Positions 23,601-55,040 of a stretch of DNA of 64,000 nucleotides are shown here, one piece after another. The position numbers and the translations under genes were made by a program. A model generated the notes under the pieces. That model saw only the letters and a program-made list of their open reading frames with translations, was not told the DNA's origin and ran no database searches. The DNA lies in the NCBI GenBank assembly GCA_040954595.2, contig CM082584.2, positions 12,685,166 to 12,749,165 of the forward strand. The letters run 5' to 3'. Within the stretch, counting starts at the first letter, position 1, and each line of letters starts with the position of its first letter. Origin of the DNA: Balanoglossus misakiensis (lineage: Eukaryota > Animalia > Hemichordata).

Positions 23601-26198
23601 ATTTACATGCATAAACCTCCATTATCAAGAGTTGGAAATTCTGGTGTTTTCATCAAGCAGATTGGGAAATTAGGGAAAAAGCACCTTCAACCACTGAACA
23701 TGCCAACTTGTGGATGAAGTTCTCCTACCTCGTGTGTGATTACACCATTGCAGAGATGATTTACAATGGCGCATAATATAATGCCATCCTCAAATCTATT
23801 AAATATAATACAATGATCCATTTAAGAAAATGTTGATCCTGTTTTGGCTTTCGCAAAATTTGTCTGTTCACTGAGAAACACTCGAATCACAACAAATCAC
23901 ATTTGAAATTCAAGGAATCTACCAGCCCCTGGGAGTCTGACAGTTGCTTCATATGAGTATTTAAACATGTAAAACTGTACTTACACAGTGTAATCAGGAA
24001 TTGTGATCTTCACCAATTTCTGCACCCAGCTGAGAACAGCCATGTCTTCTTTGTACAAAATCACAATCCCACCAATGTTCCTGTTACCAAATAGACTGCT
24101 GTAGTATCCATGGTAACCACCCTCAAAGCTCTTGTTCGACTTTGGCACGTTTTTGGATGTTCTGTCAGCTGTGCCTGGATGTTTCTGTTTCTGTGCCTGT
24201 GTAAGGGTTATCAACACTGGTGGCTCTGGTGTTCTGTTTGATGGTTGGTGAGATGGGCGGTTGGAATTTTCCTGTTTCCATGGTAACCTTGGATTCTTTT
24301 GGTGCCGTTTTGCATAGTTTCCTGAAACATACATAACCCTAAGGTAATACGAGAAATTTCCCCAAAACTTAGAGTTATAGTTCCACACAAAATGACATGT
24401 TATACATACCATCGAATCTGAGCCTCATTGCATGGCACAGAGCCAGAACAGCTTTCAAATTAGAGTCAACCAGATCTGTGAAAATAAAATGATTGTGTTG
24501 ATTTCACCTAGAACAAACCGTGAATCCATAAACTTTCTCTCAATATTACAGAAAGCATAGTGTTATATCAATCATCAAACTTTTACTATAGTAAGGGAAA
24601 CTGATGGGATTGTTATATACTTCATCAATCCGTCCTCAGTTCAGATGAGTACAATTGCACGTCTGCAGGGATGATCTGGTATAGTGGACCAGTCATACTA
24701 CCCTACACGGCTCTCAGATACCCCCCCCCCCCCCCCCCCACTGATAAATCAGACTTCATACCTGCAGCAGAAACATTGACCAAATTGACACCTCTCTCAG
24801 ACAGGAATTTCAAGCATCCGTCAATGTTTTCTATTTTCTGGAACCTCATCACTGGATTGTCATGGTAACAGGTTGGTACTTCACAGGCTGGAAAAGTCAC
24901 ACACATGAAAACAGTTACTGATCTGTGCGAAAAGTGTGCACTGTTAACTTAGAATTATAATATTATGTTTCAGTACCAATAACAGAGAAGTTCACAGGTT
25001 GAGAATTTCAGCTGGAGAGCCAATATCACAGCAAACACAGGGATATAGTCTCTCCAGCCATGTTCTGTCACTTCTTCTATTGCATCACATGAGTGCACCA
25101 TAGCTCATCATGATCAATACATGACAAAATGTCTGCATGCAACAAATCCCAATTGTGTTTCACACAATGACTACGTGTGACATGAGGGTAAAATGACCCT
25201 GAGAATACAAATAAAACAGTATGGTAATTACAATATGTTTTTATTTTTAGGTGGTTTCCATGGCAGCCATGACATAATGAAAGTTGATAGCATTGAAGAA
25301 TATGGAGTCTATACCCACAAAATGCTGCTGTGCATAAAAAAAAATTGATTTGCATTCAACTGTAGAGGTGGCAGCTGGCGGGATGGTTTTGTTTAGTGTC
25401 ATGTAGAATATATCGCTGCATTGTGAAAAAAGTGATAGTGATTTTTAAGCATAGTACATCAACCTAATTTACGAAATTTGCCACAACAAAAGAGAAACAT
25501 ACACGAAATAACTGTAGAAGGGAAAATGTCATATTTAATGCAATCATTGTCCTTTATATTTGCCTGTGGTGTGTTTATGTTACAGAAACCGTGCGACTAT
25601 TGAGTATGGTATTCACAAACTCTATTGAATTTTCCATTCATTTGCATTCAGAATAAATTGTTCGGCTTTCTGACTAAACATTACTACCAGCACATTCCTC
25701 TAAAATTTGCACACCTTGTTCCAGAAAAAAAACTCACTGCAGGTCGGGTAGTTGAGAACACAATGAGATCATAATAGAGATGTAATAATATCTAAGGTAT
25801 AAGGTATAATATCTGACCTAACTCTTCAGCAAGGTGAAGCAGAGTTACTCCGTCTCCAAGATCTCTTTCCAATGACACCAATAACTTGGCATCTGGCATT
25901 TCTTGGAGGTGACCATTTGCCCAATTCAACATTTCCTAATAAAAAGAAAAACACCCCAAATAATATTATTCACATTGAATATGATTGTCTATATCTAAGG
26001 CAATTAACAACAATCCCTATCTTGAAATACATGTACATGTAACAAAGAAAATCAGTATCTTGTCTTCAGTTTTACCTTTCTCTCTGAATCAACCATTTCC
26101 CCTTGCACTGATGGATTGTGGGAAGGTCCTGTGATCTTATAAAGTGGGTTGGCATTTTTGTTCCTATTAAGGATCAGCTGAGCTGTTCTGTCACTCAT
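20636..26198 (-). CDS. Tandem calponin-homology (CH1-CH2 actin-binding-type) domain protein with coiled coil and ~620 aa low-complexity tail, ~1037 aa
   Basis: Phase-consistent exons: 26198-26076 (ATG with in-frame stop upstream), 25935-25818, 24887-24762, 24475-24410, 24321-23985, 23795-23729, 23275-23102, 22868-22636, 22505-20636. CH motifs: EMLNWANGHL...DLGDGVTLLHLAEEL, RFQKIENIDGCLKFLSERGVNLVNVSAADLVDSNLKAVLAL, AVLSWVQK...FEDGIILCAIVNHL, RLEIAIETAQHYLGVPPQL. Confidence 0.85.
24721..24739. repeat. C19 homopolymer (G19 on the transcribed strand), intronic
   Basis: Read directly; about 22 nt downstream of the minus-strand donor at 24761. Confidence 0.95.
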
Positions 26199-27220: not shown

Positions 27221-30200
27221 TCAAGGCAAGAACCATGGAAAGGCATCAGTCTTGTGTTTGACTTTCCCTCGCCGGTCTTTTCTTGCAGCTAGTTCTGAAT
27301 TTATCAAGTCATCAACGTTCTCTAATCCCAATAACTTCCTTAAATGAATATTTTCGGTCTTATACCTGTGAATGTGTAAGCAAAATTAGAAACGTTTTTG
27401 GGAAGTAAACTTGATCAAAAAGTGCTTTTGTGTATGAAGATGACGCCATTATTCGAATTCACGAATGGTAATAACCAAAGCAATAAATGTTACATTCAAG
27501 TACATTCCGTTATATTTTATGCGTATTCACGTGATTCTCGTCAAGTTATGGCCAACTGACTTTTCACACTTTTCTGACACTTAAATGTGCACGGTAGAGT
27601 AGAGATGAAACCAAGCACGGCACTGTATACCAAAAGAACCAACGATGCGGCAAAACACAAGTAACAAAACTGCAACCTCTCAAAATTGATAATTCACTCA
27701 CCTGTTAAGATACCTTTCAATGTATCGATGGCATTCCTCCAACTGTTCTTCAGCAATGTAACACCTGCTGAGTAACGTCGCTCTCTCAGCTTCCAATGAT
27801 TGCTGTGGATTATCAATTACACCACATTTTATGTGGGTCACTCTTCATCAAATCATTGAAAGAGCTGTGATTATCGAAGTCATTTGCGCAAAAAAAATAG
27901 AATGCGGACCAACTGGATCACAACTGGAAAATGTGCAAAGGATGAATGTTACACCAACAGTACAGAGAGTGGGAGGAGGAGGAGGAGGAGGAGGAGGAGG
28001 AGGAGGAGGAGGAGGAGGAGGAGGAGGAGGAGGAGGAGGAGGAGGAGGAGGAGGAGGAGGAGGAGGAGGAGGAGGGAGAGAGAGACACCCGTACCTGAGT
28101 GTTGAGGGTAAATTCTCGTAGTTGTATTCTCAGATCACTCCATCTTGATTCATCAGTCTTCTTGATGCTGAGATAAAACGAAAGAACGGACAGATAAGTA
28201 AATTGGGGAGGGGGATTAATAGCACAGAAATAGTCCCAAGTTATAATTCGGCGTCAGTAGCAACTTAGCAAAGACATACTAGACTACGGTGCACATGCAA
28301 CGAAATAGTGGGAAAATATAGGGAAAATTGCAAGGCTGAAGAGACCGTTCCGTTGAGTACTCAATCGTATGAGATCTCTTCTACTTTTGGGTTTCAAATT
28401 TACCTTTCCATTGGTGGCAGTGGCACCGTTGCCATGGCTCTAACTTTTTCCAGTTCTTCTTGAAGTCTGGAAATTTCTTTCCTGTTTGCAGATTCTAGTT
28501 CCGGTAACTGAAGTGACAAGTTGTATTCGTCTTGTCCAAGGTCAAGTCCAATGATTTGTCTGAATGTGACCTGTTCTCTTAAATACCTTCGGAAAAAATG
28601 AAGGGGGGATACAAAACATCTTATCAAGTTTCATTAAATTTAAAGCTCTATCTTATTGTAAATCCTGCGGGATATCTTAAGATCTCAACTTTAATTTCAT
28701 TACATTTACTGCATATGTGTACACGTATTATAGACGTACCCAGATCGAGCACAAGTACGTGACGATATATGGAAAAGACAACTTGAACAATCCAGTAGTC
28801 ATAGAAACTACCACGAAGAGCGCCATCTAGCGACAGATCTTTAAATCCTGGCATGAAACCACGGGTCCAAATTAAACACTGTTTTACAATATAAATATGA
28901 CATTATGAAGTATAATATAAACCTGTAAGCTACGAGTAATTCCTCATGTCTGGCGGCAACCTTTTGAGATTGACTCTTGTACATCACAGCTGCTCTGCTC
29001 AGCTGTTCTTCTCTTGTAGTAAATGCAGTCTTTAAATCCTGTAACCCCTGGTCAACTTGCTTTGCCATGAGACAGTTCACATCTTGCTGTGATGTGAGCT
29101 TCGATTCCACATATTTCTGGGGAAAGTGTAAAAAGTGATAAAGACCTGGCTTGCGTATTTTAACTGGTAGTTTTGTTGTGGATTGGCATTATATATTTTA
29201 TTTCAAGCTGGTAAACCATCGTAAAGTTGGTGGTGCACATAGTCAGTACTGTTTTTACAAACAAAAACCCAATTAGACCTGATCATTCACTACCATAACA
29301 TATGACACTCAGAAGATGTACTTACTGCGACGTCTGAAATATATTTGGAAAGTTTCGATCGATACTCTTCATTCAGTGATTTCAGTTTATACTGAAGACT
29401 GTCATTTTGCAAAGACAAGTCGTGGGATTTGTTGGTCAGCTGAACGAGTTTCTATAAATGTGGATGAGAGAGAGAAAAGGGCTGCATAACTGAGCATGGG
29501 TTCAAGCTACATCGATCGTGGACAAAATACGTCTAGATACTAGACTAACAAAAACTGGGCCATGGAAAAATGGGCCACCACATTGTAAAGATGGTCCAGG
29601 TACAAGTGGTCCAGGAAATGGAAAAAAAAATCATTTATACAGTCTTGATTAGTGTATAATTCCTAACATGTGGACTGCGAGTTGTGATGCTACATTGATG
29701 ACAGACACATCTATGACCTGACCAATGATTTTCTTTCTACATTTGTACTTACTGTACTTTGCTGAGCGATTCTAAGCTGACTAGTCTTGACTGCTTCTCT
29801 TGCTCTGTCTAGATCGTTTCTCAGTGTTTTCCTGCATCGTTATTGGTGCATTAAAATCCACGCACGTTTAAAATTTACCGACAAAAGATGACCACAAGCT
29901 TGTTAAGTTGACCCCTCTTACACAACTATTTGCTTCAAATGATCTCCTTACTGACGGTGCTCACGAGAAGATATGGGTTTACTTTGACAACTAAAACTTT
30001 TCCCCAATGTACATATCAACTTATAAAATGACGTTTAAGTCTTAAGGATATGGCAACATCACATTATTTTTTAGTCAGTGAGTTAAATGATCTTTGTAGA
30101 GGTGAAGGGTAAACATGTCACTGTGTAGTACCAAAGAAATATTAATTTAATATGTTCCGGCCCTTAACAGAACTTAATACATGGACATTTGATATACTTT

Positions 30201-33200
30201 ACTTCTCTATTGACCCGTTATACACAATGAACATATCATTTTACATCCAGGGACGTATTTAATAATCTGCCAATCAAATACGCAAGCATTTATTTTAAAA
30301 AATAACACCATGTGAAACGGAATTTTCCCCTTTATTATCCAAAGATACTGCAATCATAATATCAGCTCCAGGTCGACATCAGACCAAAACATACTGGTGA
30401 CGTACTGGTGATTATATCAATTGTGAATTCAATGTAGGACGAAAAGTGCTGTGTGTTTCCGGTAATCTGACCTGCTCTTTATAAAACAACGATCGGGCAC
30501 ATTGAGATAACAACGTATTATTTTTGCATTAGTGACATACCCATACTTACACAAGGCTTTCTAGTTCCCTTTGCTCTATGACGTAATCAGACCTCATTTT
30601 TTGCAACTCCTTGTCGAATTGATAAGTGGTTCCAAAGAGCTGAAAGGTACATTTGTCAGTTCATTTTTTTTTGCGGATAGACAATAATACAGATCATGTT
30701 TAAAGGGAGAAATTGATAAGAGTATCGCACTGAATAAATAAAGAATATAGACAACTGAAAAGCTTGATGCAGACATTGGTATAGAATAATCGATACTCAC
30801 CCGTTTCTCAATTTCCAATTTTTCCTGTTCAGCACTGTGAGCGGTCTCCACCTTCATGTGATAAATGCAATACACGTATCAGACGTAATTCTATCATAAT
30901 TTGTTGTTGTTGTTAAATCAATTTTTACAAATGAGAACCTACTTATAACCAAAATTAATATTACCCAATGTCATTACATATACATATATATATTCACAAA
31001 CCCTATACCTTACCTCCACTTCACTTTCCCGCAAGACTCTCATGTACATATTCTTGAGTTTCTTTTGACTCTCCATCAATTCCTGTTTCTCAAACTTTAG
31101 ACGAGCGACTCTATCCTTCAGTTCTTGCAGGTTCTTCTGCACTTGATCTGTCTCCGTGCTTGACTGCATAATCTCATTTTCCAAAACCAAACACTATGTA
31201 AGGAGGAAGACACAAACATATAGGCAAGTAAAATGACTGAAACAGTTGTTGAATGAGTGATACTTGTAATACCGGTACCATTTTCCGAACACCGTGAGAC
31301 TTTGAGAGATTTAGTGTGGCTAGCAGTTGATATACAAGATTGAGACTATCTCATGTGACATAGGACAAACACAGATTATTAGAACATATTGCATACCCGG
31401 TTGGTCAACTCGAATTTGGTGTTTTCAGCCTCTTCCGTCAGACGGGTATTTGCAATCTTGGTTTCCACTAGATCTTTGGAGAGCTGTTAACAAGATGTGA
31501 AAACATTTGTGTGAATTGTCAGTGAAATTGGTGTAGCACAAGATATGGATAGTGGAGGGAAATATGGTCCACCTTTCAAATAAAGATCCTAGATCACAAT
31601 ACGAAGTCAATATCTATTGATAACTATACCCTGTTACTTACAGCAAGTTTCTCCTCCTCAGCAGTGACTAACTTCGATGACAAGTCCGTTTCTCTTTCAG
31701 CCATTACTTTTAACTTGTCTTGTAGTGACTTCACATTCAGTGGCACTTTTTCTCTTCCCTTCTATTCTCAAGAAATAGACATAGTAGATAGGCAATACGT
31801 TAATGATCATTTGTATAAATTAAAATGCTTACATCTATAACAGCATTATGCTACCTTAGATATGAACCAAAATATTTACCGTTTGAACCTTCTGTGTCCC
31901 GGCTGCTCCAGAGTCTGTCATTTCTCTTAAAGATGTTGCTAAACGTTTATTTTGTTCCCTGAGGGCGTCAATTCTAGACTTATATTTTGTTAGCAGAATC
32001 TGTAATATAAAATGAATAAGTGTAAAGGAATCACAAAAGAGTTGAGGTGGTGTGTGTGACTTACATGTACGTCCCTGTGGTTATAAAAGGTCAAAGGAAA
32101 ATCATTTCATGATGTTTGTTATATGCAAACATGGCAAGTGAATGCTGTGTCGATATTATCTTTCATATACATGTCTTGATTTCAAAAGACATGTACATGT
32201 ACAAACAATATCATTTACCTCCGCAAATGTTGAGTTGATAATTGGATAGTTCTTCACATTTGACATGACTTTGGCAACACTGAGCATGGTTCCTATTGAT
32301 TCCTGAGACTGCTGTGGCTTGAAATGTATGAGAGTAGACGTGCAACAGTTGCCGCCCAAGACAGTGGGAAGAAGGTTGACGAACTGTGATATACTGAAAT
32401 AAAAGTGAAGAGAAAGAGAACTTAAGAGTTGCAATAGCTGTATAATTGGCTGAGGACACCACAAATTTACTCGCAATACACAATTTTACATTATTTACAG
32501 TTTCAGTTGTTTTAATCTGCGAAGTTGTTGAATATGAAAAAGACAACGGTGTACTATATCTATTGGTTAATGTTTACTGACAGTACGGGTCATGTTATCT
32601 TCTGTGTACATATAGGTTCATCGTGGCGGCAAATCGGCAATGTTTTGGATTGCAGCCAAAACCACACCTGTAAACTCAAACAGTGTAAAAAGGTACATCC
32701 GCAAGGTGCGGTGATCACGAATATTATCAGTTCAAATAGAACTGCTGCACTGTGTTTGTTTCCAACTCTGGCGCGAAATGAACACAAAATTCATCATGAT
32801 TTTAATTAAACAATTCAGGCTACAATAATGAATATCATGAGAGACATAACGAAAATAAACCACAGATACATCATTTAATGCAGTAGACATATCAGGAAGT
32901 ATGATGTTATGGAATTTTACCGGGGCATGTGGTAACATGTTTGAACTCTGACCGTCAAAATATTCATGTTAAAAGATTCTCTGACATCTTTCCAATTTTC
33001 AATAACAAGGGTCGATTTACAAAGTTTACTTTTGAAAACATAACTCAGTAGCCTCTTAAAATCTCTGGCGGTTTTGGAGCAGCTATCAACTAGGTCTACG
33101 CGTGGCCTTGGCTTCAGGGTTCCGTTGGATTGTAGAGATGATATCGATATCCCAGCCAACGGTTACTAGCACTAGCTGACACAGAACAGAAACATTGAGA

Positions 33201-36200
33201 ATTGTTGTTGGAGATCATCCTCTAGACCTCCTGTTGATTTTAAGGGTGCAAAACTAATCAATGCACATCATTTTCAGTGAATTGGTAAATTTCCATCAAC
33301 TTGGAAATTTTCTGTTTGCATTTTCGAGTTTTTGTACATACCACACAGCTGACAGTAAAGCTACAACAACATATTTTATGATATTTGCATTAATAACCAT
33401 GTGACATACATTTACATCCTGTATCATATAAGTGGGTTTCATATATACAAATGAGCCAAACTCATCTCAGCCCTATATGTTGATACTTTGTTCAGCCAAT
33501 GAGATCAGAGCTTAGCTCGGCATCCTGTCACTCCTGTGATGTCATATGCATCGCATTACACCAGGGCAGTGGCGTTGTATTAGCCAGTCAACAACACATC
33601 AACATGTGATTACACCAGTTGGAAAGTCTTTCATCTCACAGTCCAGATTTAAGGTTGGTTTAAATATGACTGCGCTACTTTACATTTTATCAACAGTGTG
33701 TGGGTTTCCATGTCTAATTGTCACCCACTTTGCGAACTGTATGATCAAAGTTGGGCAATCGATGGAGCTGGAGGATACACACACAACCATCAGATCATTT
33801 TATATGGTGAACCAGACGTATCAGATTTCCCAGACAGCTGTTCCACGGAGCGACAAATGATGAACTTTCAGTAAACAACATTGTCTTTTCAAAGGCTTTA
33901 TACAGTGGTGGTTCTTCAGTATGTAAGCAGATTTGTTGCATTTGGAAGTGATGACGAAATTGTTTGAAGTCGTATGAGACCATGTGGTACAAAAACTATT
34001 TTACGAACATTTTAGAAGATCAACCATGGGTAAACAACTCAACACGCAGGGGCCTGGACTCGCTCAAAAAAAAAAATTAAGTAGGCAGCTCGAGGTTTAC
34101 GCCTTCATTGAAAGTTCAACAGTCGCATCCAATGTCAGAGAAAAAGGATGGGTATGGCGTTATAACCACCATTTTGAAAAAAGTTTTTGACTTGTTTTCG
34201 TTTTGAAAACTATTGAATGTCAATGGGATGTATATAATAATTGAGCTACTGTGTTTGGCAATGGACTGTGGTTTGCTCCAAATACACACACAAAATTGGT
34301 TAGCTTGAACTTAAAGTTTGATTAGCTGCGGAGCATTTGCTGTGGAAAATACTTCTAAAAACACAATTCATCCAAACGCATGCAGGAAGGCATAAACATA
34401 GAATTTCATGAATGTGGCCCCATTGGCCTAGATACGGAATCAACAACACGCCTTTTGACTTTTTTGAGTGAGAGACAAACACTTGCAATAATGAAAGCAA
34501 TACTGTGTTAACATGAGGTGAAGTTATGTTTGTATTAAACAAGATTTACAGCCGGGAAAGTTGTTTTCCTGATATCGTCACAAGATAAGCAGCCTATTAA
34601 AAAAGTGCTGTGGTGATAAGTCATAGCCTTGATCACACGGAAGGTTGGTGTCCAGCAATATGTCCTGATAATAGTAAAACTAAAGTTTGCAGTGTGACCT
34701 ACCGCCACTTTTGAACTTTGTAGCTCTACTATTTCAGTTGGGGGGCAACTTTTCAAGACAAAAACCAACTTTTCAAAGGGGACAAAATAGATAACTTTTG
34801 ACATTATTTTAGTTATTTAAGTATAGATAGATTATTTATGTCATAGGGTCAATCCTGGGCCAGTTGGTCACAGCTCAACTCAAAGCCAAACTCAAAATGG
34901 GCATGTTAAAACTACACACGTGCATATGCACTTATCACAGTATAAGATCAATGAATCACACACACACACCTCATTCACCCCGTGTTGCAATTTACATCTC
35001 TGGCATAGTTGTGCGTATGTGCAAGCATGGAGTCTCAGGAACGCACAAGTAACCAAACAATAAAATGCGTTGGCTGTACATATCAATGAATGTCTTTTAA
35101 ACATTAGCAATGAATCAATATGCTTATAGATTAGTTGCCACCCTTTATCCACTGCATAGCTACGAATGGATTAAAAGGCATAATGTATATCAGTAATATG
35201 TTTATACGGTTTTGTAAGTTGAGTAGACTTCCTTTATTAACATTAATACATGACTGTCTAATATGTGTACCTTTTGTGTTCATTTACAGAATAAAGCAGT
35301 GAATAAGTTGGAGCTGTAAAGAGAAGTCCAGTCTTATGTGACTACTCTTTTCTGGTGGAAAATTATTTAAAATCTCTTCAGTTGCAGTTATTCATCATTG
35401 GGTAAAATGGGATCAAAAGAAGTGGGTAAGAGTTTGTTTAGAATTTCTGGAGACAACTATACTTTGTATGATGTGTTGCTTCACCATTATCTCTCTCAAT
35501 ATATAACATCTTCTTCGGCTGGGGAGTTTGTAACAGTGAATGGTTATCTTCAACTTACATCAAAAAGTATTATTTGTAATTCAGATGTTGCAGCGTCCCC
35601 CCATCAGTTACCTGTTGAGACAGTTGTGGTGATGCAGAAGAATAATTCTACGGTATGTATAAAATGTTTAATATATCCCCAGTAGATCCTCAACCATTAA
35701 CTTTAGGCTGAATGTGGTTGTATGTGGTAGATCTGAGAATTCAAAGTAATCAAAACCATTGAAAATCTGTTATGAATCAACATTTAGTCTCTTCTTTCAT
35801 ATTCATAAGCTCAGCATGAGTTTGCGGCCATTAATTTTATCAGTCATTGTCCTCATCCTGACCTTTGCATAATGTTCCGCTAATTTTTAACACAGGTTTC
35901 CAATGGTGTAAACCCTGAGTGCCATGTGGTTGTTGAGACAGCTGCTTCTCCATTGATGACAGCAGCTCCAACACAACAAATTGAGGTGAGTTTACATAGA
36001 AGTGACACTGTATCTGTTAGAACAGACCTCTTAAACATGTCAGTCACATTACCAATAGTAGTACACTATACAAGCTTACTATTTTTTCCAGAGTAATGGG
36101 GTACTGGAAACAGAGTTTGTGGAAGAATTTTATGTAAAACGGCCTGCAGAAGACTGGTGTCTCAACTCTGTAGCAGCAATTCTATGTTTCTTTCCTATTG

Positions 36201-39200
36201 GTCTCTTTGCCTTGTACTTTTCAATTCAGGTAAGCAGTGTGTTTTTGTTGTTTTCATCTTAAAGATTTGTATTGGTACATGTAAATGTAGATGACTGGTG
36301 GTAGTGTCATATGAAGTAGGGAGAGCTAACTCTTTTCGAAACATCAGACACCTTGAAACTTGAACTACGGATTCCATTCATCAGCAAATAATCACTATGA
36401 TGGTTGGAAAGCTGACACAGATCTCACTACATACTTCTTTCCTCCCATGCAGACCCGCCAAGCAAACAGGGATGGGGACCGAAACACAGCCAAAAAGTGG
36501 TCAAGGTGGGCACATCTTACTGGTATTGCTGGAGGCCTTGCTGGGATCTTTATAATGGCAACCGTATTAGTTCTTAAATATAAATATGACTACATATAAA
36601 GTTAAGTGTCTCAGTGATGAGCAATTGCACCGTGTTCCATGAAACACATGTTGGGTCTTTGAATCAGACTGAGAAATCGTGAAAAATTTTCAGCGGGCAT
36701 GGCTTCTCTTGTGAAATGAAATGTTTTTCTTTTCACAATGCAGTTTTTATCATGTAATATATGCTGGTGTACGTGTTACAACCCTTTCAACTTCTGAAAT
36801 AGGTTGGTACTGGACTTTTGAGATATATTTTTTGAAAATGTAAGCAAAAGGGTTTATAGGAAGATTATACTGCTGCAGCTGGCACTGTTTTTGAACGTGA
36901 CTTTTCTGATATGGTCATAGTAGAGCACTAACATGACTAGTCTAGTATTTGTAGGGTTTCGATGGGAGCCACTTATGTACAAACTAAAGTACAGTAAAAG
37001 TTTGTTCAGTGGAAACTTGTCTATATGGCTACGTACTTTACCATTAACATTTGCATAATAATTTATCTGACGGTTTAGGAAAGTCCCTTGACTGGCCACT
37101 ATAGACAGGTTTGACTGACAGTATATTACATTGTGTGTACTACAGTATTTTATAGTATGGAAGAAATTGCCTTAATATGGTGGCATTGAACAAAAACTGG
37201 GCATAAATACTCTTAGAAATTAGCACACATATATATACTTCCGGAAATTCAATAAAATGTTTTTTTTTTCTAACTAATGACAAATGAGGCAAGATATTTT
37301 GGGTCTTCTGTTTACCTTTCAGGCATTTTCCGGTGTGTGTGGGTGTATGTATACATATACATGTATTTGTTGGTGGTTGGGTAGGGGCAAGCTGGTCTTT
37401 TTTTGTGTATAACTTAGTGAATTTCTTACCCATAGTTGGTCTTGTCCTGCCGTGCATCCTGGGAAGTGAGTTCAAGCGCTGACAGAATGGAATCGCTGAG
37501 TGTTTCCGTGGTAACAGTGTGATCAATGTGGTCGAGACAAATCTCAACAACTGCAAATAATGATTTCGTTGAAAGCAAGACATTGTCATGTATCTGAAAT
37601 GAAAATATAGGGAGAAAAAATTTAAAATGTTGAGCTTGATAGACCTGTATAGGGATTTAAATACCTTATGCCCAATCCCCAAATTGACAGAAAGTGGGCA
37701 ATTCTCAGAACTAATGTGGAAAACTTACTGATTCTAACTCAAGTAGGCTGACAGACGCAGCTTTGTTGAGGCCATTGAATCTTCTGTTAGACGTGGTTTG
37801 GTTGAGCATAGCAACAGTACCTTCAGATGTCTTTATTGGTAATCTTCTGACTTGCTAAATAATGTGGAGGGAAAAAATGAAAACATCTCTTTAACAATTT
37901 TTTGTTGAGCCACTCTTTGGTAGATCAAATATCCTGGTGATTCACAGATATTAATCAGGGAATCATGTACATGGAAAAATGTAAGGCATCATGAACTCAT
38001 AATAGTGAAAGATTCAATGTTTTGAGGTTTGAACTTTTTATGAAGATATGTTGGCCAACTGCACACAAGTAAGTTGATAAAGAAAACTTTGGTGAAATTG
38101 ATGTTGTATATTGCATTTAATCTTTGCCAAGCAGCAGAGAAAGTGGAACTAATAGCCAAGTTATTTGACAAGACTATAAAACAATACAATGCAATACAAT
38201 ACATTACACTACAGTGATAGCTAAGAAGGGAAATCACACTTAAGTTACATATGCCCATATATGGTGAAAGGGTTGTGTCTAAGTCTTCCAATACAGTTGG
38301 TGGTGCACTGTGATTGGCCAGATCTCAACCTTCCCTGGTAACTGTGGATAAAGTTTCATTGGTGACCATAACTGGATGAACAGCAGATTTTGGAATACAG
38401 ATGATACTTACTGACAAGTCTTGCTTTGGCTTCCCACTTTTGTTACCATCTCTGATCTCCAGCAAGTCATTCACCTGATGTTTGTAAAGCTCATACATCT
38501 CCAGTGTTACCAGTGGTTTGATATTTTTATTTTTACCTTAATGGATGAAAATGATTGAGAATGATTAATGGTCATTTGAGGACCAAATTGGATCTCGCTC
38601 GGCTGTGAGATTTTCAGCTTTGCTTAATATGTTTTGCCCAAAAGAGTAGCAATACGAAACACTGCCCTCTACCAAAATTTATGAAAGAAAGCATGCACAG
38701 GTATTCATGACTATAAGTTATAAGTATAACTTACTTTGTCTGTCAAGTTTGATAAACAAGTCCTTAAAAATCACGGAAAAGAGAGCTTTATCCTCGTCAA
38801 TGTCTTCACTTAAGGTTTGGTAATTTTGGGAAGGGTCTGATCCCTTCCAACACAGGAAACAGCAGTTGAAACCTTGCAAGAAATCGTTCAGTAGAGGTTC
38901 TAATAGCTTGTCATATATATGCCTGGTGTTGTCACTTTCCCTGAAAATCTGCCGAAACCTAAGGGTGGAAAATGACCGTGGTTCAGGAGAAGCAAATATG
39001 AGGATCACAAATACTGAATTGATTTACTCGTACTGCTAGGAAAGTGGTGTGATGGCCCAACAAACAGCAACAACTGCGAATGGAACTTAGGCCTATGAAA
39101 TGTACTTGTTGCTAACGATCTCCATGAAATATACTAGGATGAAATCTGCCCCGATTTCGCCCGCGTTGACTCACTACACAGTATCAAAATCTCAAATGTC

Positions 39201-39510
39201 AACATCAGGCAAAGATCATGATTTGTGGAATCATTACGATATCGTCAAACTTGCGTATCGTTCACTATCGTCTATCTTATCCATGATGCATGAGGCTTAC
39301 ATTAATTTTTGGAGACGACAGAGGATGTAAGATCGCCTCAACCCAAGACAACAGAACGAATAAAGACAACAAATATTGGTTTTGGTCACAGTCTTGAACT
39401 TACTCATAGCTCCTTGTTCCATCTTTGGTACAAAGTGTCGCCTGACCAACTTGGCGCAATGCAGGAATATCTCCCGGAGCTCGAAATCTTGCTGTTATTT
39501 CAACATCCAT
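27221..39510 (-). CDS. CCDC78: CCDC78-like coiled-coil protein with an N-terminal degenerate kinesin motor domain, ~822 aa, 19 coding exons
   Basis: Exons: 39510-39404, 38958-38735, 38536-38412, 37854-37729, 37593-37430, 32393-32219, 31999-31880, 31761-31642, 31483-31397, 31193-31014, 30851-30801, 30639-30551, 29831-29753, 29451-29326, 29116-28923, 28586-28404, 28167-28095, 27802-27702, 27365-27221. All are GT-AG, in phase and stop-free (2469 nt). CCDC78 motifs: EEEKLALSKDLVE, REEQLSRAA...RHEELLVAYR, LEAERATLLSRC.IAEEQLEEC..YIERYLNRYK. Kinesin-like motifs occupy the first ~307 aa. Confidence 0.85.
27972..28073. repeat. (GGA)34 trinucleotide microsatellite, intronic in the CCDC78-like gene
   Basis: 102 nt of uninterrupted GGA, lying between exons 28167-28095 and 27802-27702. 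Confidence 0.97.
35407..36599 (+). CDS. CD225/dispanin-family membrane protein (PRRT1/TRARG1-like), ~153 aa, nested antisense in an intron of the CCDC78-like gene
   Basis: Exons 35407-35425, 35585-35652, 35896-35985, 36092-36229, 36453-36599. The peptide RPAEDWCLNSVAAILCFFPIGLFALYFSIQTRQANRDGDRNTAKKWSRWAHLTGIAGGLAGIFIMATVLVL follows the CD225 pattern (P.D....S....LC..P.G..A..FS........GD...A...S..A followed by a TM helix). Confidence 0.85.
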
Positions 39511-40162
39511 TGCAGATGGCCTTCACAAGATTGCAGCAGACGATATCGACGTTTGACTCCCTAAGCAAGTTATAAAAAAATATTTGAAGTCTCGAAAATC
39601 CTGAACTTTTTTTCCGTATTTTGGCCAAGGCAACCATAGATTATTCTCTTAAAATCGAGAATAACAATTTAGGGTCACCGTGTAAAATGTTTAAATAGGG
39701 AGCAACATTTTTCTCAAATAAGATATTTAAAAAAACGACGATCTCCACAGTGACGATTGTATCTAATATAAGAACAGGACGGTGCACACCCAGTTTTCTT
39801 AGGGGGGCTGTCATTGGCCAAAGTTTCAAGCATTCTGATTGGTGAAAAGTTTTACCGCACCACAGGAGGAAGATCTACTTGTCATGTTTCTAAGACATGG
39901 TTTGTATATCTCATAAAATATACGCAGTTTACTTTAATATGACTTTGTACAACTTCTACCCAGGCCATACCCCGGGAAATCTAACGCGCAATGCACTCCC
40001 TGCACGGCGAGCGCCCTCGAGCGACGGGTCTTCCAGTTGAATTTTCTTCAGGTCATGACCCGACAACATGGTGGGTGGTGTCGATGGATACTGCAGCATC
40101 GCACGAATATAGCGTGTTTATAACGATCGCCGGCATTATATTGTAAGTTTTGATATCGCATA
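39511..40162. promoter_or_regulatory. Putative bidirectional promoter between the CCDC78-like gene and TRAPPC10
   Basis: Divergent start codons 652 bp apart, CpG-rich segment 39960-40140, and CCAAT boxes (ATTGG) near 39813 and 39838. Confidence 0.55.
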
Positions 40163-43100
40163 ATGGACTGCAAGCCGATTGTTACATGTAAGTACCACGA
40201 TCGTGCTGATAATGAAAGTATTTTCTCGACTATAAGTACATGAACCTTGGCTCCTGTACATCACTATGGATCATTGGATGTTTACGTAGTGCAACGTACA
40301 TGTACTAGTATACTGTAGTACGTCCAATGATGATCATAATTAGTCTATACAGAATCGTGTGGTGTTTTCGGGTTCTGCAAACATTATATGCCACCATCTC
40401 GCCACACACATTGGTTTTTCCAACTGCAACCGGGAAAACCATCCCGTCAATCAAACCATGATGGAGCTCCTATGAAATGTACTAATGATGAATGAGGTCA
40501 GACAGTGGATTAAAGTCTGTTGATCTTGAAAACACCAGCTACATGTATGTGATGTTGGATAATGAAGTAATGGTAGTAAAACTGTTTGAATGATGTTGAT
40601 GGTTACAGGTCATGGCGATCACGAAGTCTTTTCTTCAGTCCAGGCAGAGTTGACGGAAAGACTGCCAAGAGATGCAGTTGAGTGGAGAAGGTAAAAATTG
40701 AGTGTTCATTCAATACTAATACTTTCACCCACGATTCCCTCTTTAGAACATCAGTGCAGACAATGATGTATCCTATGTGGCAAAGATTTACCCAATCATA
40801 CTGCAGAAACCAGATGGGCTGTGTTACAATATTGATGGCTTATGTTTGCAGGTCCTATGGAAGACCTCCAAAGACTGTGAATGTTGAGGCCACCTTTGTC
40901 AACTTCACTCAAGATGTCTTACCCAAAGAAAAAGATCGCACTCTACTACGACAGCCCTTCTTTCATATTTATTGGACAGAGTGCCCGGTAAGTATCATCA
41001 TCTTTCCTGAAGAAGCTGCTCTTCTGGTGAGAACTTCAGTTTCTACTTGAAGGCAGCTTTGCATATTACATGTACACTGTAAGAACAATGATACAGGTGA
41101 TTAATTACCTGGAGATGGAATTCCCAACATCCCTGTTATACAAGGAGATCAAAACTGGCTCGATATCATATTTGCAGGATGCGGATACATACAGGGCTGA
41201 AGTGAAAGATGACATTACAGTATGGTTGCAAGTGTTAAAACAGCACAACATCCCAGACTGGTTCATCGTCGTCGTGGAGACAGACAAAATCAAGAAAGGC
41301 AACAAAACGAAACTGCTGCCACGGACATCTGTCATCGATAAAATCAAGAGTGATTTTTGCAGCAAACAGAGCAGTGATAGGTTGGTATATGTGTGCGTGT
41401 GTGAAATCCTACCTGATTTGCAAAATAGTGGCAAACAGATTTGAAAAATATTGCAGTTCAGCAGATCACATTGTCTGAGAACAATCTTGATTCCATTGCA
41501 GATGTTCAGTGTTGTTTGAATCCAACTTGCCTCCGTCAGCCCAAAGGTCTGTCGATTCATGGCAGATGTTTATCGGGAAAATTCGTCCACTGATGTTGTC
41601 AGCGTTGAATCGTAATCTCAGTCGCTACGAAGAGATGATGCGATCGCAGCGGGAAAAGCGTACCGACCCAAGATGGAATTTTCATGAGTATTTCATGCTT
41701 CAGGTAAGAGTTGCACCTATCACCTACAGGGGAAAACTACATACATGTAGGGATAGGTTTCACATATCACACTGTATTGACTATGTATCTAGTACATTTA
41801 CTATTTTCTTGATTCTTTATCAGGAGGAACTTGCATTCGTCTTTGAAATGCTGAAGTTGCCCGAAGAATCCTTAGTGCAATATGATGAGCTTGATGCTCT
41901 CTTCTCTCAATTTGTCATCAACACACAGGCAGGAGGTATGTTCCAAATGGAAATGCATCTTTTGTGAAATGGGTCTATTGATCATGTTCAGATAATCACC
42001 CAGTTAAGAGTTTGCCATGGAAGAATTCTAAATGACATCATACATGTAGGTTGCCAGGGAATCAGGGTGTGAAGATAGTAGGGGTGACAGGGTCTGGTAG
42101 ACAAATGGCAGCCATTGTATCTTTTATGAAAGAAGATTATATCGTTATGTTCTCGTTGACAGAATCTCCACGATGGCTCTCGTCATTCACCAAAGAGTGC
42201 AACTGTTGGGACGGACTGAGTTTGCCAGAGTCTGTCAACAAAGACAAACAAAAAGTGGTGCAGGAAGGCAAAGCGACCCTGCTGGACTTGCGGAATTACC
42301 TGTTTTCCAGGCAGTGTGCCTTGTTGTTCGGTCTGCAAAGACCCTGGGAGGTCGCACAGAGGTCACTGCCGTTCATGCACAACACTGTCCATGAGCTGAG
42401 CATTCTGGAGGTAGGTGATGAGGGTGCTGTCCTCTGTCAGTCATCATGCACAAACTCAACATTCTTCAAGAACTGGTATCCTGTGAAATCAAAACCACTG
42501 CGTACATGATGGCATGATGTTTATAGATTTCTCTTCTCATCTAATGATATTTTGATCACCAGAAGTCACTGCATGTGATTTTTCAATTTGATTCTCCATT
42601 CAGGTTCCCTTACCAGTTGGCAGTGTTGCATGCTGGGTATTCCTCAGCTGTCTGGAAGTGCTGCAGATGTGTGAAAGGTTCGGAAAAGCTAGTCAGGTTG
42701 ACGCATACACGCATTACACAGCTAGCTTGTGGGCGTATGCTAGAGACAAGGTATGCACAGTGTGGTCATGACTTCCTGATTCTGAAACTGGGCGAAAATC
42801 TTAAATTTATTATTCCCATTTTGTGTCATGCCAAACCAGGCAACTTTGGTGCATCATCTCTGATCTCCAACCTCACTTTGTGCGTTTACAGCTCCATGAA
42901 TTAGGAACACTCTGTGGTTTAATGCCTGACATGAAGCCGACTTCAGAACAGTTGCATCTAGTTGTGGACTTGCTGTCTGGAATGGGAAAACAGGAATCCC
43001 ATTCCTTGGAAAACTCGCCAAACCAGAAACTGAGGGAAGCCCTGAGTTCCAAGGAATCTTTCCAAAAACATTTCTTGGTAAGCAGACCTTTTCCAAGTAT

Positions 43101-46100
43101 TTCCTATCTGTATATTCACCACTTCATTACCACTGTTAATGAAGTTGTTTGAATAGTAATTGATTGAGACAATATTCATATATTTTGCAGGAGTTATCAG
43201 AGCTAGCCATGGGAACATACAAACACATTGGTAGACTACGCTGTGCCAGAAGAATTGGGAAAGACTTGGCTGTGTTTTATATGTAAGTAAACACCTCAAG
43301 TTTCATGTCTATTGGAGTATACATATATGTACATGGACAGGACTGAGACGTATGTGTGTATGTATGGCCATTTCCAGTTGCCTAATTTGTAATTGCATTG
43401 CAGGAAGAATGGAGAAGCTCACAAGGCTGAATTATTCCTGAGTGATGCACTCAGAACGTACGTAGACGAAGGCTGGGATCTGCTTGTGACCGATACAAGA
43501 AAGGAATTAGCACTGTGTCAGAAAGAAGTCAAAAGTTCAGTAAAGTATCCTTGATATTCACATCCTTAGATATAAAAGTCCTCTTGCAGTTGGTCTACAA
43601 CTTATTATTACCTGTTTGTCCTTAACATGAATGTGTTTGTAGATATGTGAAAAACTGTGCTCTATTGGCAGCAGACAAGTTTCTCTCCCTGGATGACAGA
43701 AACACGTTTTGTGATGAACTTGTAGAAGTGTCCAAGGACCTGGCTGATGGACAAAAAGATGCAGGTGAGATATTTGAAGAGATCAGTAAAAAAAACACAG
43801 CACTATTTCCTTGTATCTTCACTTTCACATGAACTTCTCTGAGGGTCAACCATATGTCATGGATTCCTTACACAGGTGAAGATGTTTTAATGAAGATGGA
43901 ACCGGTCCTGTCGTTCGTTGACATCGAGATGACCCCTGAGAGTGGAAAGGTCATTCTGGCTCAGGAGGTCATCTTGCAAGTGACCGTCTGCAGTAATCTG
44001 TCAAAAGAAATCATGTGCAATAAACTCAGCATCTTTGTCGTTCACTCATCATGTGATGACGACAGCCAATCAGAAGACAAGGTATCACGTGACTCTGTCA
44101 AGTCCAGCCAATCACAGACCTCCCTGCAACACGAATTTGCAGACAGAGTTTTCCCCAGCATGCTGGACTTCAAACATGATTGTGACTACCTGCCTGACAA
44201 GACCGCTCAATGGAGTGCCCTCGTGTGCAAAAACATGAACACGTTACTTCAGAGACAGGACAGCACATCGTCTCTCCGGAGACAGGATGTCTGGCAGAAA
44301 GAGGAATTCTCACTGGCTGTAGAAAGGACCAATGTCGTTTTGCAACCTGGTGTGAACAAGATTGAATTCAAAACTGAGGTAATAACAACACGATGAATTG
44401 CATAATATCCCGTATGGGTGAAATGTTTGTAAACTGGTACCAGATGTAGTGAATTAACTTTAAAACATTTTGCAATCATTTCTATGAGGTAATGAACCCA
44501 TGTGGTTGGTACATGCTGTTGCAGGTCACTGAGCGAGGTACCTTCACAATGAATCAGCTGTGTGTTGAGATCAACCAACTACAGCTAATACATCCACGCA
44601 TACTGCCATCACTGAGGTATGACGTCACTACCCAGGAACCTGTCGTCACTATCTCTCCATCACAAGGTACAGAATCTGTTTGTTTATGCTTAGGAAAAAA
44701 TTGCAAAGTCACAGAGTGGTATCTACTGTTTGTGACAGTACATAGCTGCCTAATTATTCCATGGGATTGGACTATGTTGCAGGCATCACATGAAAAACTT
44801 TATAACATCCACATACTCCATTTCTCTTCTCTGATTCAGAGCCGCTGTATGCAGGTATACCTCAATGGGTATCGGTCCACATTGTAACAAACTGTTACAT
44901 TGTCAGACCTGATGATGTCATCGACATCAAGGCTCCAGACGGGATGAGAATCCTGGAAACGTCCGACGATCAATACAGCATCAAGCCATCGCAGCTAGGG
45001 ACTGCACTGCAGTTGCCAGGGATAGATGCAAACAGCGAGGCTGGTGTGGAACTGAAAGTCAAATTGGATTTCCCGGATTATGATGATGATGATGATAAGG
45101 GTGATTGTGAACATCAAGATGTACAGGTATCATGCCTCACTTTATGTCTTGAGTTTTGAAATCTGACTGGAAAATCACTGGAAACTCTTCAAGAAAGTCT
45201 TGGAGTTTCAAATGATATTGAGTGTATGAATCCTAATATTCTTTGTATGATCTGAAAGAAAGTTATCAAGAGTTGTAGCTTGTGTTCCTGAAACACTGTG
45301 ATTGTAAACTGGTACTCAGCATGCTGTCCAGATTGTAATGACAGAAAAAGCTGATGCTGTCATTTTTATTTACAGCTTCAGTTGCTGTGTCCATGGTCAG
45401 AGAAACTTGCCTGCCCTTTGACGTTCCAACTGCCATTTGTAGTCAAGCATCAACTTCACACTGCAAATGAAAGGTAAAGTGAAACTGTCATCTCTTCTTC
45501 TAATTGTATCACCCACCTGTTTCTCAGAAGAAATAAAACATTATTTGTCATGAATAAGAACCTAAATGTAACTGACTCAAACTATCATTTTTTGCATCCC
45601 TATTCAGGAAATTCATTCAGGTTCAAGTGGAGGGAGTGAGTGATTTGGACTTCACACTTCAAGGAGCCACAATGAGTTATAAATCATCCGACAGTGACGA
45701 ACTGATGAAACTTGTCGGCATAAACACCAATGCTGAAATGGTGAGCTTATACTTTTGATCTTAAACATGAAGCTCTGCAGACCTTAATTCTTTGTAATAA
45801 AATTGTTTTCTCGAATTGTTTTTGCAGCACATAGCCAATAACCTGACAGCAAGCTACGTCTGGATGATCAACCAAAACATGATGACTGCTGAAAAGTTGG
45901 AGTTTGTCTTCAATGTCAAGTACAGACTTGTCAGTGATGAAATTGCTGATGTGTGGGAAAATTGCGTACATTCATTCACTGTTGCTAATTTTCAGGTAAG
46001 TCTTTCCCTACTCCCGTTGCATATTATTCTTCAATTGATGTTCAAAGTTGCTCCTTTTTGTTGCTTTATCTCAAAAGACGCGTCCAGTCAAGAAGACCAT

Positions 46101-46834
46101 ACAAGGCTATGAATATGGCAAAATCGTACATTCCAGAGTTGTCACTTTGAACATACATGCATTTTTCTCGTTGCCTCAACAGACCATGTTTGTTGTGAAT
46201 GCTGAAGTGAAGTCTCATTCCTCCGAGTTGTGTAAAGCCGGGTCCTTGTGTAATCTCTGCATCCACATAACACAACTCCACCAAGACAGCGTCACCGGAG
46301 ACACTCCCACTCCCACTCAGGCAGAGGAAGAGGCCCACGCCATATTGTATGAAGTGATATCAAACAGTGCATTGTGGGCCATCTGTGGAAAGAGCTCTGG
46401 AGTCTTCAGTCTTCCCAATGTTGCCAAGACAAGCCATGATGTTTCCTTGGAAGTGATGCCACTCATAGCAGGATATTTACCAATACCTAATGTCAAGCTC
46501 TCCAGATATATATCAGAGAAGATGAAATCTTCAGGTAAAGAGAAGTCAAAAGTTGCTACATGTATAGACATTGCTTCAGTCAAAGACTATAAAGTTTTTA
46601 TACGGCAAGCTTTTTCAACAGTGTCATTACCTTTTGAATACTCTTTTTTGTTCCGTAGACAATGACCAACAGACAGAAGACACAACCGAGTCCAATACAA
46701 GTGATGGACAAAACGACATCGGACCTCACCTGGAGCCATTCAGCGCTGGACAAGTGTACGTCTCAAGTCAGACCACACAGGTTCATGTCATGCCTGATAA
46801 TAACACCAGTACTTTAGAAGTCAGTGTCCCATGA
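40163..46834 (+). CDS. TRAPPC10: Trafficking protein particle complex subunit 10 (TRAPPII subunit, Trs130 homolog)
   Basis: About 20 exons beginning 40163-40187, 40609-40690, 40852-40987, 41178-41380, 41502-41703, 41824-41935, 42163-42410, 42604-42750, 42892-43077, 43191-43282, 43403-43544, 43643-43764, and ending at TGA 46832-46834. Peptides MDCKPIVTC, EWRRSYGRPPK, PFFHIYWTEC, LPRTSVIDKIKSDFC, QEELAFVFEML, QYDELDALFSQFV, LLDLRNYLFSRQC and LEVMPLIAGYLPIP match TRAPPC10. Confidence 0.95.
43545..43642 (+). other. U12-type (minor spliceosome) GT-AG intron in TRAPPC10
   Basis: 5' splice site GTATCCTT and branch site TCCTTAAC at 43619-43626, 14 nt before the AG. Removal restores the frame (VK|YVKNCALLA). 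Confidence 0.9.
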
Positions 46835-47492: not shown

Positions 47493-50740
<3,248 letters not shown>

Positions 50741-51648
50741 TCTCAGGGAAATTTTCACGTTGAAGAAATAGGGATTGATGTCGAGTAGCGCGTGACAGCA
50801 TGCAGCAGTAAATGGCGGACTAGACTGATAACCAGGTGCAAAATACAACCTCTGTACATCGACCTTTTGAGCAGATTAACCTTCTGACGCACCTGTACAT
50901 AAATGTCACGGCGTATAAGATTAAGAGGACGCCCTCAAATTGAAGCCCATCTATGGCACATTGTGTATTAAAGTAGTTTGAAGTTAATTTAATTACATTT
51001 ACCTTCCATGATGTTGTCTCAAATCTCGTGGAGTGACCCTGTCCCACATATACTAATATTCTAATTCGAACATGTTGCCATTGACGACACATACAAAATT
51101 AACATGCGCCCATCTACATGTATATTCGTCTACGTTCATTTACTTTTTGCCGAGTCAATTACGTGGTATGTTTTTGATATATTACCAGTAGTGGAGGGCA
51201 GGTAGCCACATATACATAAGAAATATTGTAATTTCGCTTGTTTTCTAACATTTTGCCATGCAAGACTCGGGGAAAAAAGTAAATGAGCGCATACGAAAAT
51301 AGATGAGCGCGTCTCTCCTTGTCAAAATAGCAGATGTCATGCACATTACGTAAGGACTTTAATTTGTCTAGACGTGTTGCGATTTTCATCAAACGCAGTA
51401 ATGTAGATCAAATAAAACGACAATATAAGCCCAGAGCTGCGAATACGTAGTTCTTATCCGTACTGATGTGCTGTGGTGTGAATAACTTCTATAGCTTTCT
51501 GGTTATAGAGGTCACGCAAATAAATTACTGTATTATACAGGTTAACTCGAGTATAAAGTTCATTGTTAGGGCTTCCAGGTGAATGCACAGCTGGCTGCCG
51601 CTTCAGGAACATCACCAGTCTCTCCAGTCTTAAAACTGATTACTTAAA
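50741..51648. promoter_or_regulatory. Shared divergent promoter region of the CYP4 pair
   Basis: 908 bp between divergent ATGs; TATAAA at 51552-51557 upstream of copy B. Confidence 0.5.

Positions 51649-55040
<3,392 letters not shown>

What the first reader, a model, noticed from the sequence alone, without database searches (positions are those of the whole stretch)
27221..39510. Kinesin 'pseudomotor' fused to a CCDC78-type centriole/deuterosome coiled coil
Seen: six exons (39510-32219) splice in phase across a 5 kb intron into the CCDC78-like exons, with no stop codon. Their ~307 aa follow the kinesin motor fold in order: VEITARFRAP (cf. V.VRVRP), YEFRQIF...IYDKLLEPLLNDFLQGFNC (cf. FDxVF...PLV..GYN), LEMYELYKHQVNDLL (cf. 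SYLEIYNE.I.DLL), SNRR, ISQFVNLLPTVLGGNC (cf. DSKLTRLLQDSLGGN), ESIGTMLSVAKVMSNVKNYPIIN (cf. ETLSTLRFA.RAK.IKN.P.VN). All three nucleotide motifs are gone: P-loop AYGQTGSGKT -> CWKGSDPSQN, switch I SSRSH -> AASVS, switch II DLAGSE -> EICLDH. Established: these motifs are required for kinesin ATPase activity; Xenopus CCDC78 acts in deuterosome-mediated centriole amplification; human CCDC78 is known as a coiled-coil protein without a motor domain. Inference: this is an ATPase-dead kinesin-fold scaffold or microtubule tether, and mammalian CCDC78 may be the stalk left over from an ancestral kinesin. The supplied ORF track shows only disconnected pieces of it.
Basis: partly seen in the sequence, partly recalled or inferred. 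Interest (0 to 1): 0.8.

Follow-up and report, generated by a model that had tools for sequence, protein, structure and literature searches.

The report
Acorn-worm ATP-blind kinesin-headed CCDC78 duplicate
This predicted 19-exon gene is a second, acorn-worm copy of the cilium-tip protein CCDC78; its predicted kinesin-shaped head has lost every ATP-binding motif while the sister copy keeps its ATP-binding loop, so it likely works as a motionless microtubule-bundling scaffold and parallels the loss of the whole head in birds, reptiles and frogs.

Summary
Observation confirmed. Nineteen in-phase GT-AG exons give an 822-aa protein: a kinesin-fold head (about 1-303) and a CCDC78/DUF4472 stalk. A Ptychodera orthologue matches at 65% across the 5-kb intron junction, and its head folds as a kinesin (Z 26).

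The architecture is not new. It is published for Tetrahymena I7LVY1, and 29 of 87 CCDC78 hits, from cnidarians to ambulacrarians, carry the head. The scan noted dead-headed CCDC78 before on another genome (e1-9877145).

Ordinary copy A keeps Walker A (24 of 25) but never intact switch I or II. This gene is copy B, seen in three acorn worms. It also lost the P-loop, the L12 microtubule-binding lysine and a 58-aa stalk block that one A isoform skips. Trees favour an acorn-worm duplication with moderate support.

Likely function: an ATP-independent bundling scaffold at motile-cilium tips, acting through the stalk as headless Xenopus Ccdc78 does. An A-B heterodimer has weak support only. Expression is untested. 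New variant of a known kind.

The parts
27221..39510 (-). CCDC78 paralogue B: 19-exon gene model, 822 aa
   Evidence: frame, GT-AG, phases; 65% to Ptychodera P0001 over 784 columns; 47% to Saccoglossus P0002
39404..39510 (-). exon 1, ATG, beta1 and RxR motif (aa 1-35)
38735..38958 (-). exon 2, alpha1-beta3-former P-loop-alpha2 (aa 36-110)
   Evidence: Pfam Kinesin E 9.6e-5; KIF18A alignment
38823..38852 (-). site of the lost Walker A / P-loop (CWKGSDPSQN)
   Evidence: in the orthologue model residues 79-86 have pLDDT under 50 and no helix follows, unlike copy A
38412..38536 (-). exon 3, beta4-beta5 (MYELYK..VNDLL) (aa 111-152)
   Evidence: Kinesin E 0.035
37729..37854 (-). exon 4, alpha3 and shortened switch I loop (aa 153-194)
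   Evidence: deletion shared by all three B proteins
37430..37593 (-). exon 5, beta7, lost switch II (37545-37528), shortened L11, alpha4 (aa 195-248)
32394..37429 (-). intron 5, 5036 nt, phase 2, inside the head
   Evidence: no further CCDC78/kinesin piece by tblastn, no repeat of 40 nt or more
32219..32393 (-). exon 6, L12/alpha5 (basic residues lost), LGGNC, alpha6, KNYPIIN (aa 249-307)
31642..31999 (-). exons 7-8, neck helix and start of coiled coil (aa 308-387)
   Evidence: helix 312-345 in the orthologue model
31014..31483 (-). exons 9-10, DUF4472 (aa 388-476)
   Evidence: exon 9 E 1.2e-6, above cut-off
30852..31013 (-). intron 10 (162 nt, phase 0): position of the 58-aa block lost from all B proteins
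   Evidence: the intron is too short to hold 174 nt
27221..30851 (-). exons 11-19, conserved CCDC78 C-terminal stalk (aa 477-822) and stop
   Evidence: 77-78% to Ptychodera B

Best explanation
This gene is a second acorn-worm copy (B) of CCDC78 whose head has lost Walker A, switch I and switch II and is predicted to keep the kinesin fold but not bind or hydrolyse ATP; it likely acts as a static, dimeric scaffold that bundles and caps microtubule ends at the tips of motile cilia, mainly through its coiled-coil stalk. Shown: the gene model, the loss of motifs, paralogy in Ptychodera, and loss of a 58-aa stalk block. Predicted: the kinesin fold (on the Ptychodera orthologue). Inferred steps: (1) the ancestral CCDC78 was already a kinesin with broken switches but an intact P-loop; (2) after a duplication, probably in the acorn-worm stem, copy B shed nucleotide binding and the canonical L12 microtubule contact; (3) the stalk keeps the tip function shown for headless Xenopus Ccdc78; (4) the head is kept as a rigid spacer or docking module rather than as a motor.
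For: Orthologue P0001 is 65% identical end to end. Its head model (pLDDT 75, pTM 0.77) matches kinesins: Foldseek E 9e-18; VIA Z 26.1, rmsd 3.4, 288 aligned, against a best non-kinesin Z of 7.3. Ptychodera has both A (P0033/P0034) and B (P0001), only 25% identical in the head. Type A rows: Walker A in 24 of 25 that cover it, S[ST]R in 0 of 24, D+G+E of switch II in 0 of 28; B proteins have none of these. B is one clade in all trees (100) and sister to hemichordate A at 90 and 86/85. The stalk is the better conserved part of B (77-78% vs 58% for the head). Headless Xenopus Ccdc78 sits at the extreme tip and bundles microtubules in vitro (PMC12796433, sections 8, 9, 13 read). A Ccd78 gene of unknown copy marks the telotroch ciliary-band cluster 11 and neural cluster 10 in Schizocardium (PMC13554239).
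Against: There are no expression, localisation or biochemical data for copy B. The B head is far less conserved than the A head between comparable species (58% vs 84%), which fits a decaying vestige as well as a new role. The lost 58-aa block holds a motif found in 74 of 87 CCDC78 hits, including most vertebrate ones, so the B stalk may not do all that vertebrate Ccdc78 does. The timing of the duplication is not settled: AU tests did not reject B outside hemichordate A + crinoids (p 0.063) or B with amniotes (p 0.056), and exclusive shared residues were 3 with hemichordate A and 3 with crinoids. Only Ptychodera showed both copies. The fold was predicted on the orthologue with an alignment dominated by A rows.
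Confidence: 0.5

Rival explanations
1. B is the nucleotide-blind partner of an A-B heterodimer, laid out like Kar3-Vik1: the A head senses nucleotide through its intact P-loop and the B head is a foothold or brake, though neither would step.
For: Both copies coexist in Ptychodera. ESMFold2 on the Ptychodera A (625-895) and B (520-781) stalks scored ipSAE 0.44 against a best control of 0.00 (3 controls), verdict weak support; contact agreement at least 41%, partner pLDDT at least 55. The mark was reached by 51 of 78 solved and 2 of 108 mismatched pairs, but at 0.60 or under by only 5 of the 78 and by all 4 mismatches that passed. Vik1 is a solved precedent for the fold without a nucleotide site (2o0a, Z 17; PMC4338441 passages).
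Against: Paralogous coiled coils can pass by likeness to a homodimer, and the tool states that a pass does not tell which family member binds. The 58-aa deletion puts B out of register with full-length A, though in register with isoform X3. A lacks the catalytic switches, so there is no active Kar3 equivalent.
Confidence: 0.17
2. The B head is a vestige under relaxed selection, on a path parallel to the complete head loss in vertebrates and Ciona; only the stalk matters.
For: Head identity is 58% in B against 84% in A. The P-loop, both switches and the L12 lysine (kept in 23 of 29 A rows, 0 of 3 B, read) are all lost. The B stem is long (1.25). Headless CCDC78 is sufficient in Xenopus.
Against: The head stays in frame in three acorn-worm species; 58 of 186 comparable head positions are identical in all three, many at B-specific residues; and it still models as a full kinesin fold.
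Confidence: 0.15
3. B serves centriole or basal-body amplification in multiciliated cells, while A keeps the tip role.
For: Xenopus CCDC78 recruits Cep152 at deuterosomes and its knockdown lowers basal-body number (PMC6210342 passages). A duplicate could have taken one of the two known roles.
Against: The same review describes Deup1, the other deuterosome marker, as a vertebrate duplicate of CEP63. The headed form in Tetrahymena is tied to the tip cap proteome.
Confidence: 0.13
4. The model is an artefact: two genes or a pseudogene joined across the 5-kb intron.
For: No transcript was seen here.
Against: The intron splits the head itself; P0001 and P0002 are contiguous across the junction; 18 of 18 introns are canonical and in phase.
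Confidence: 0.02

Closest known systems
Tetrahymena I7LVY1 (kinesin motor + CCDC78; ciliary tip cap candidate; PMC10522465, PMC12796433)
   Same: N-terminal kinesin domain followed by a CCDC78 coiled coil
   Different: The passages read describe it as a predicted kinesin, with no comment on dead motifs. I could not fetch its sequence, so its motif state is untested here.
Invertebrate headed CCDC78, copy A (Ptychodera XP_070563966, Glandiceps XP_077981514, amphioxus, crinoids, molluscs, cnidarians)
   Same: Same architecture, homologous over the full length, switches I and II already broken
   Different: A keeps Walker A, a full-length switch I loop, L11, usually the L12 lysine, and the 58-aa stalk block; B has lost them all.
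Vertebrate CCDC78 (Xenopus extreme distal tip protein with Ccdc33; deuterosome factor)
   Same: DUF4472 and the conserved C-terminal stalk
   Different: No head (54 of 54 reptile and bird hits are headless; Xenopus 558 aa per the paper's supplement); most keep the block that B lost.
Yeast Vik1/Cik1 motor homology domain (PDB 2o0a, 4gkq; PMC4338441)
   Same: Kinesin fold without the elements to bind or hydrolyse ATP, on a coiled coil
   Different: C-terminal head of kinesin-14 type, partnered with an active motor (Kar3); 11-13% identity here; independent origin inferred; no active partner known for CCDC78.

Membership tests
CCDC78 family | DUF4472 (PF14739) domain | tested here: met
   exon 9 scores 29.5 bits against a cut-off of 26.6; orthologue 53.8 bits
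CCDC78 family | Conserved C-terminal stalk and placement among CCDC78 proteins | tested here: met
CCDC78 family | Cilium-tip localisation, CCDC33 binding, microtubule bundling | not testable with these tools
   shown only for vertebrate Ccdc78
Kinesin superfamily (fold) | Kinesin motor domain fold and Pfam PF00225 | tested here: met
   orthologue P0001: Pfam 50.5 bits above cut-off 29.3; VIA Z 26.1, rmsd 3.4, 288 aligned; window exon 2 alone is below cut-off
Active kinesin motor | P-loop GxxxxGK[ST] | tested here: not met
   absent in the window protein and P0001, the 2 B proteins that cover it; present in 24 of 25 A rows
Active kinesin motor | Switch I NxxSSR (motif as in PMC5076506) | tested here: not met
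   deleted in 3 of 3 B; S[ST]R in 0 of 24 A rows
Active kinesin motor | Switch II DxxGxE | tested here: not met
   0 of 3 B; D+G+E together in 0 of 28 A rows, Glu alone kept in 25
Active kinesin motor | Basic L12/alpha5 microtubule contact (YRDSK..R; role recalled) | tested here: not met
   Arg, Lys and Arg are replaced in B against kinesin-1; Lys in 0 of 3 B and 23 of 29 A rows (read)
Vik1/Cik1-type non-catalytic partner | Motor-homology fold lacking a nucleotide site | tested here: met
Vik1/Cik1-type non-catalytic partner | Heterodimer with a sister kinesin head | tested here: inconclusive
   weak support only, 0.44 vs control 0.00
Vik1/Cik1-type non-catalytic partner | Partner is a catalytically active kinesin-14 | tested here: not met
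   the only candidate partner, copy A, lacks both switches and has an N-terminal head

The most novel reading that the evidence does not exclude
CCDC78 is an unrecognised, ancient pseudokinesin family of the cilium tip that decays in steps: an ATP-binding but non-hydrolysing head (most invertebrates), an ATP-blind head (acorn-worm copy B, perhaps separately in a bryozoan), and no head (amniotes, Xenopus, Ciona). In acorn worms A and B pair as a two-dead-heads heterodimer, and with a duplicated CCDC33 they build a second tip module for particular cilia such as the larval telotroch.
Probability: 0.2. Interest if true: 0.75.

Novelty: new variant of a known kind. Interest (0 to 1): 0.5.

Why it matters
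The paper that defines CCDC78 at the vertebrate cilium tip treats the kinesin head as a Tetrahymena feature absent from vertebrates, and a comparative study called CCDC78 recent and mostly limited to vertebrates (PMC8470418). The data here show headed CCDC78 from cnidarians to amphioxus, with broken switches in every row examined, and an acorn-worm duplicate that has also dropped the P-loop. One species, Ptychodera, therefore holds a natural pair (P-loop present, P-loop absent) on the same stalk. With headless Xenopus Ccdc78 this gives a ready series to ask what a non-motile kinesin head does at the cilium tip and why it could be lost. It is a lineage-specific variant, not a new kind of machine.

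Tried and rejected
Word-index searches with exon 2 and exon 15 found nothing; this was a limit of the method, since the HMMER search with exon 15 then found the orthologues. No RNA holder was listed for 31000-39600, and no whole genome is held, so neither splicing nor a copy A in this genome could be checked. tblastn found no second CCDC78 piece in the window. P0004 is a repetitive spurious hit and was dropped. The careful 29-row tree did not finish (searches are quick trees), and the third AU test (B with cnidarians) was not run for lack of time. Ciona and Bugula were left out of the stalk tree; trees used 15-29 of about 90 sequences. An RFX X-box-like string 124 nt upstream of the ATG (39634; consensus recalled) is imperfect and was 1 of 6 loose hits in the window, so it is not used as evidence. 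Chlamydomonas FAP125 as an orthologue was a recalled lead; the passages read (PMC7596323) do not link it to CCDC78. The Tetrahymena tip structure preprint (PMC11642885) has no mention of CCDC78 or I7LVY1. dN/dS could not be computed because no orthologous coding DNA was available.
Full report
Gene model. The minus strand from 39510 to 27221 holds 19 exons that join in phase with 18 of 18 GT..AG introns into 2469 nt, 822 aa plus stop. The 5036-nt intron 5 lies inside the head, and the exon 5 frame stops right at the donor if unspliced, so a two-gene reading would split the fold. Of 18 exon translations scanned (exon 11 was too short), exon 2 hits Pfam Kinesin at E 9.6e-5 (below cut-off), exon 3 at 0.035, exon 9 hits DUF4472 above cut-off and exon 10 weakly. 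No RNA run was listed and no genome is held, so splicing is inferred from orthologues.

Relatives. HMMER with exon 15 returned 25 proteins. The best two are Ptychodera flava XP_070562391 (P0001) and a partial Saccoglossus protein (P0002), 65% and 47% identical to the model and contiguous across the intron 5 junction. The window is therefore likely from an acorn worm. The Saccoglossus model lacks a 29-aa block the size and place of exon 9, which suggests shared intron positions. A search with the C-terminal region of Glandiceps P0005 gave 87 proteins: 29 carry the kinesin head (cnidarians, molluscs, an annelid, crinoids, hemichordates, three unnamed), 54 reptile and bird proteins are headless, and 4 gastropod models are headless. 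Amphioxus is headed and the Ciona record is headless. The search was limited to 503-1603 aa and returned no ciliate, fish, amphibian or mammal.

Two copies. Ptychodera has both an ordinary headed CCDC78 (copy A: P0033, P0034; 84% to Glandiceps P0005 in the head) and P0001 (copy B); their heads are 25% identical and both list the same longest contig length. The window gene is copy B. In a 29-row quick tree B is one clade (100), sister to hemichordate A (90), within Ambulacraria (98), on a stem of 1.25 changes per site. A careful stalk-only tree of 16 rows gives 86/85 and 89/95 for the last two nodes. A careful 15-row LG+G4 tree keeps B in Ambulacraria (97/98) but leaves the inner order open, and AU tests do not reject B outside hemichordate A + crinoids (p 0.063) or B with amniotes (p 0.056). 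Exclusive shared residues are equivocal (3 with hemichordate A, 3 with crinoids). An acorn-worm-stem duplication is the favoured reading, not a settled one. I saw no A for Saccoglossus and no B named for Glandiceps.

Motifs. Against solved kinesins and across 29 type A rows, which include isoforms and congeners: Walker A is present in 24 of 25 rows that cover it, S[ST]R of switch I in 0 of 24, and D+G+E of switch II in 0 of 28, with Glu kept in 25 and position 3 changed to Pro in 27. None of the 90 sequences checked has SSRSH or DLAGxE. PMC5076506 (passages) gives these motifs as strictly conserved in kinesins, so even copy A is predicted not to hydrolyse ATP, though it may bind it. Copy B goes further: no P-loop in the 2 proteins that cover it, a deletion in the switch I loop and no switch II in 3 of 3, a shorter L11, and loss of the basic L12/alpha5 residues (Lys in 0 of 3 B vs 23 of 29 A, read; their microtubule-binding role is recalled). 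All three B proteins also lack 58 aa at the exon 10/11 junction, exactly the block missing from Ptychodera A isoform X3. Intron 10 is 162 nt, too short to hide it. The block carries a motif found in 74 of the 87 hits. B has thus likely fixed an exon-skipped form.

Fold. AlphaFold2 on residues 1-346 of P0001, as a stand-in (58% identical in the head), gave pLDDT 75 and pTM 0.77, with the former P-loop disordered and no helix after it. Copy A's head gave 84 and 0.87, with helix 83-88 after an ordered P-loop. Foldseek's listed rows are all kinesins (best E 9e-18). VIA-align ranks a mouse sperm central-apparatus chain first (Z 26.1, rmsd 3.4, 288 aligned), KIF9 at 24.2, Vik1 at 17.0, and the first non-kinesin row (myosin) at 7.3. 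ESM Atlas places P0001 with a 230-member cluster named CCDC78-like, 100% Kinesin and 94% DUF4472.

How it likely works. Hong et al. (PMC12796433; abstract, sections 8, 9, 13, passages and supplement passages read; figures not visible) show that headless Xenopus Ccdc78 marks the extreme cilium tip, recruits Ccdc33, bundles microtubules in vitro and also affects basal-body number. The stalk is the conserved part of B (77-78% vs 58%), so the tip-bundling role is the best inference, with the head as an ATP-blind structural module. In A the head is more conserved than the C-terminal stalk (84% vs 76%), so constraint on the head relaxed in B; still, 58 of 186 comparable head positions are identical in the three B proteins. 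In Schizocardium a gene named Ccd78-1 marks cluster 11 (telotroch) and cluster 10 (neural), and Ccd33-2 marks cluster 10 (PMC13554239; passages and a marker table that was cut when stored). The suffixes hint at duplicates of both genes, but which copy is meant is unknown, and the cut part may hold more. An A-B stalk complex scored 0.44 against 0.00 for the best of 3 controls, weak support that paralogous coiled coils could earn by likeness (calibration counts under rivals).

What is known. Kinesin plus CCDC78 is in print for Tetrahymena I7LVY1 (PMC10522465 passages), and databases already annotate the invertebrate forms. Ten literature searches (open-access library only, read as listings except for the papers named) showed no title or passage describing dead motifs in CCDC78 heads, headed animal CCDC78, or a hemichordate duplicate; 'DUF4472' had 0 papers. 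PMC8470418 (passages) calls CCDC78 mostly vertebrate, which the hits contradict. Vik1/Cik1 are the precedent for a kinesin fold without a nucleotide site (PMC4338441 passages), but B fails membership because no active partner exists. An earlier scan note on another genome (e1-9877145) reached the family-level dead-head reading; I confirmed it for invertebrate switches only, and found that Walker A is usually intact.

Verdict. Real, intact and more specific than first described: an acorn-worm CCDC78 duplicate with a fully nucleotide-blind kinesin-fold head. New variant of a known kind; interest 0.5.

Noticed in passing
P0116 (Bugula neritina): This bryozoan headed CCDC78 also lacks Walker A and seems to lack the switch I region: a possible independent decay, or a faulty gene model.
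   Followed up: partly
P0036, P0039, P0044, P0058: Four gastropod CCDC78 records are headless and start near the vertebrate start, while close relatives are headed: either a short isoform from an internal start or truncated models.
   Followed up: no
PMC13554239 supplement file 5: Gene names Ccd78-1 and Ccd33-2 (but plain Spef1) hint that both tip-module genes are duplicated in Schizocardium.
   Followed up: no
window 39510-41000: CCDC78B and TRAPPC10 (+ strand, about 40000-46800; Pfam) lie head to head with a short shared upstream region.
   Followed up: partly
window 20639-25935 (-): Downstream gene with a calponin-homology domain (E 5e-4, below cut-off), charged coiled-coil exons and a 629-aa single-exon tail with no Pfam hit; unidentified.
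   Followed up: partly
window 47600-54940: Two cytochrome P450 genes in inverted, divergent arrangement with exon-sized arms 74-94% alike: a recent duplication or gene conversion.
   Followed up: no
window 11101-14400 (+) and 57600-64000 (+): 3' exons of an NFI/CTF transcription factor, and a polycystin-1-like gene with a polycystin channel domain.
   Followed up: no
window 27970-28075: A (GAG)n microsatellite of about 100 nt in intron 17.
   Followed up: no
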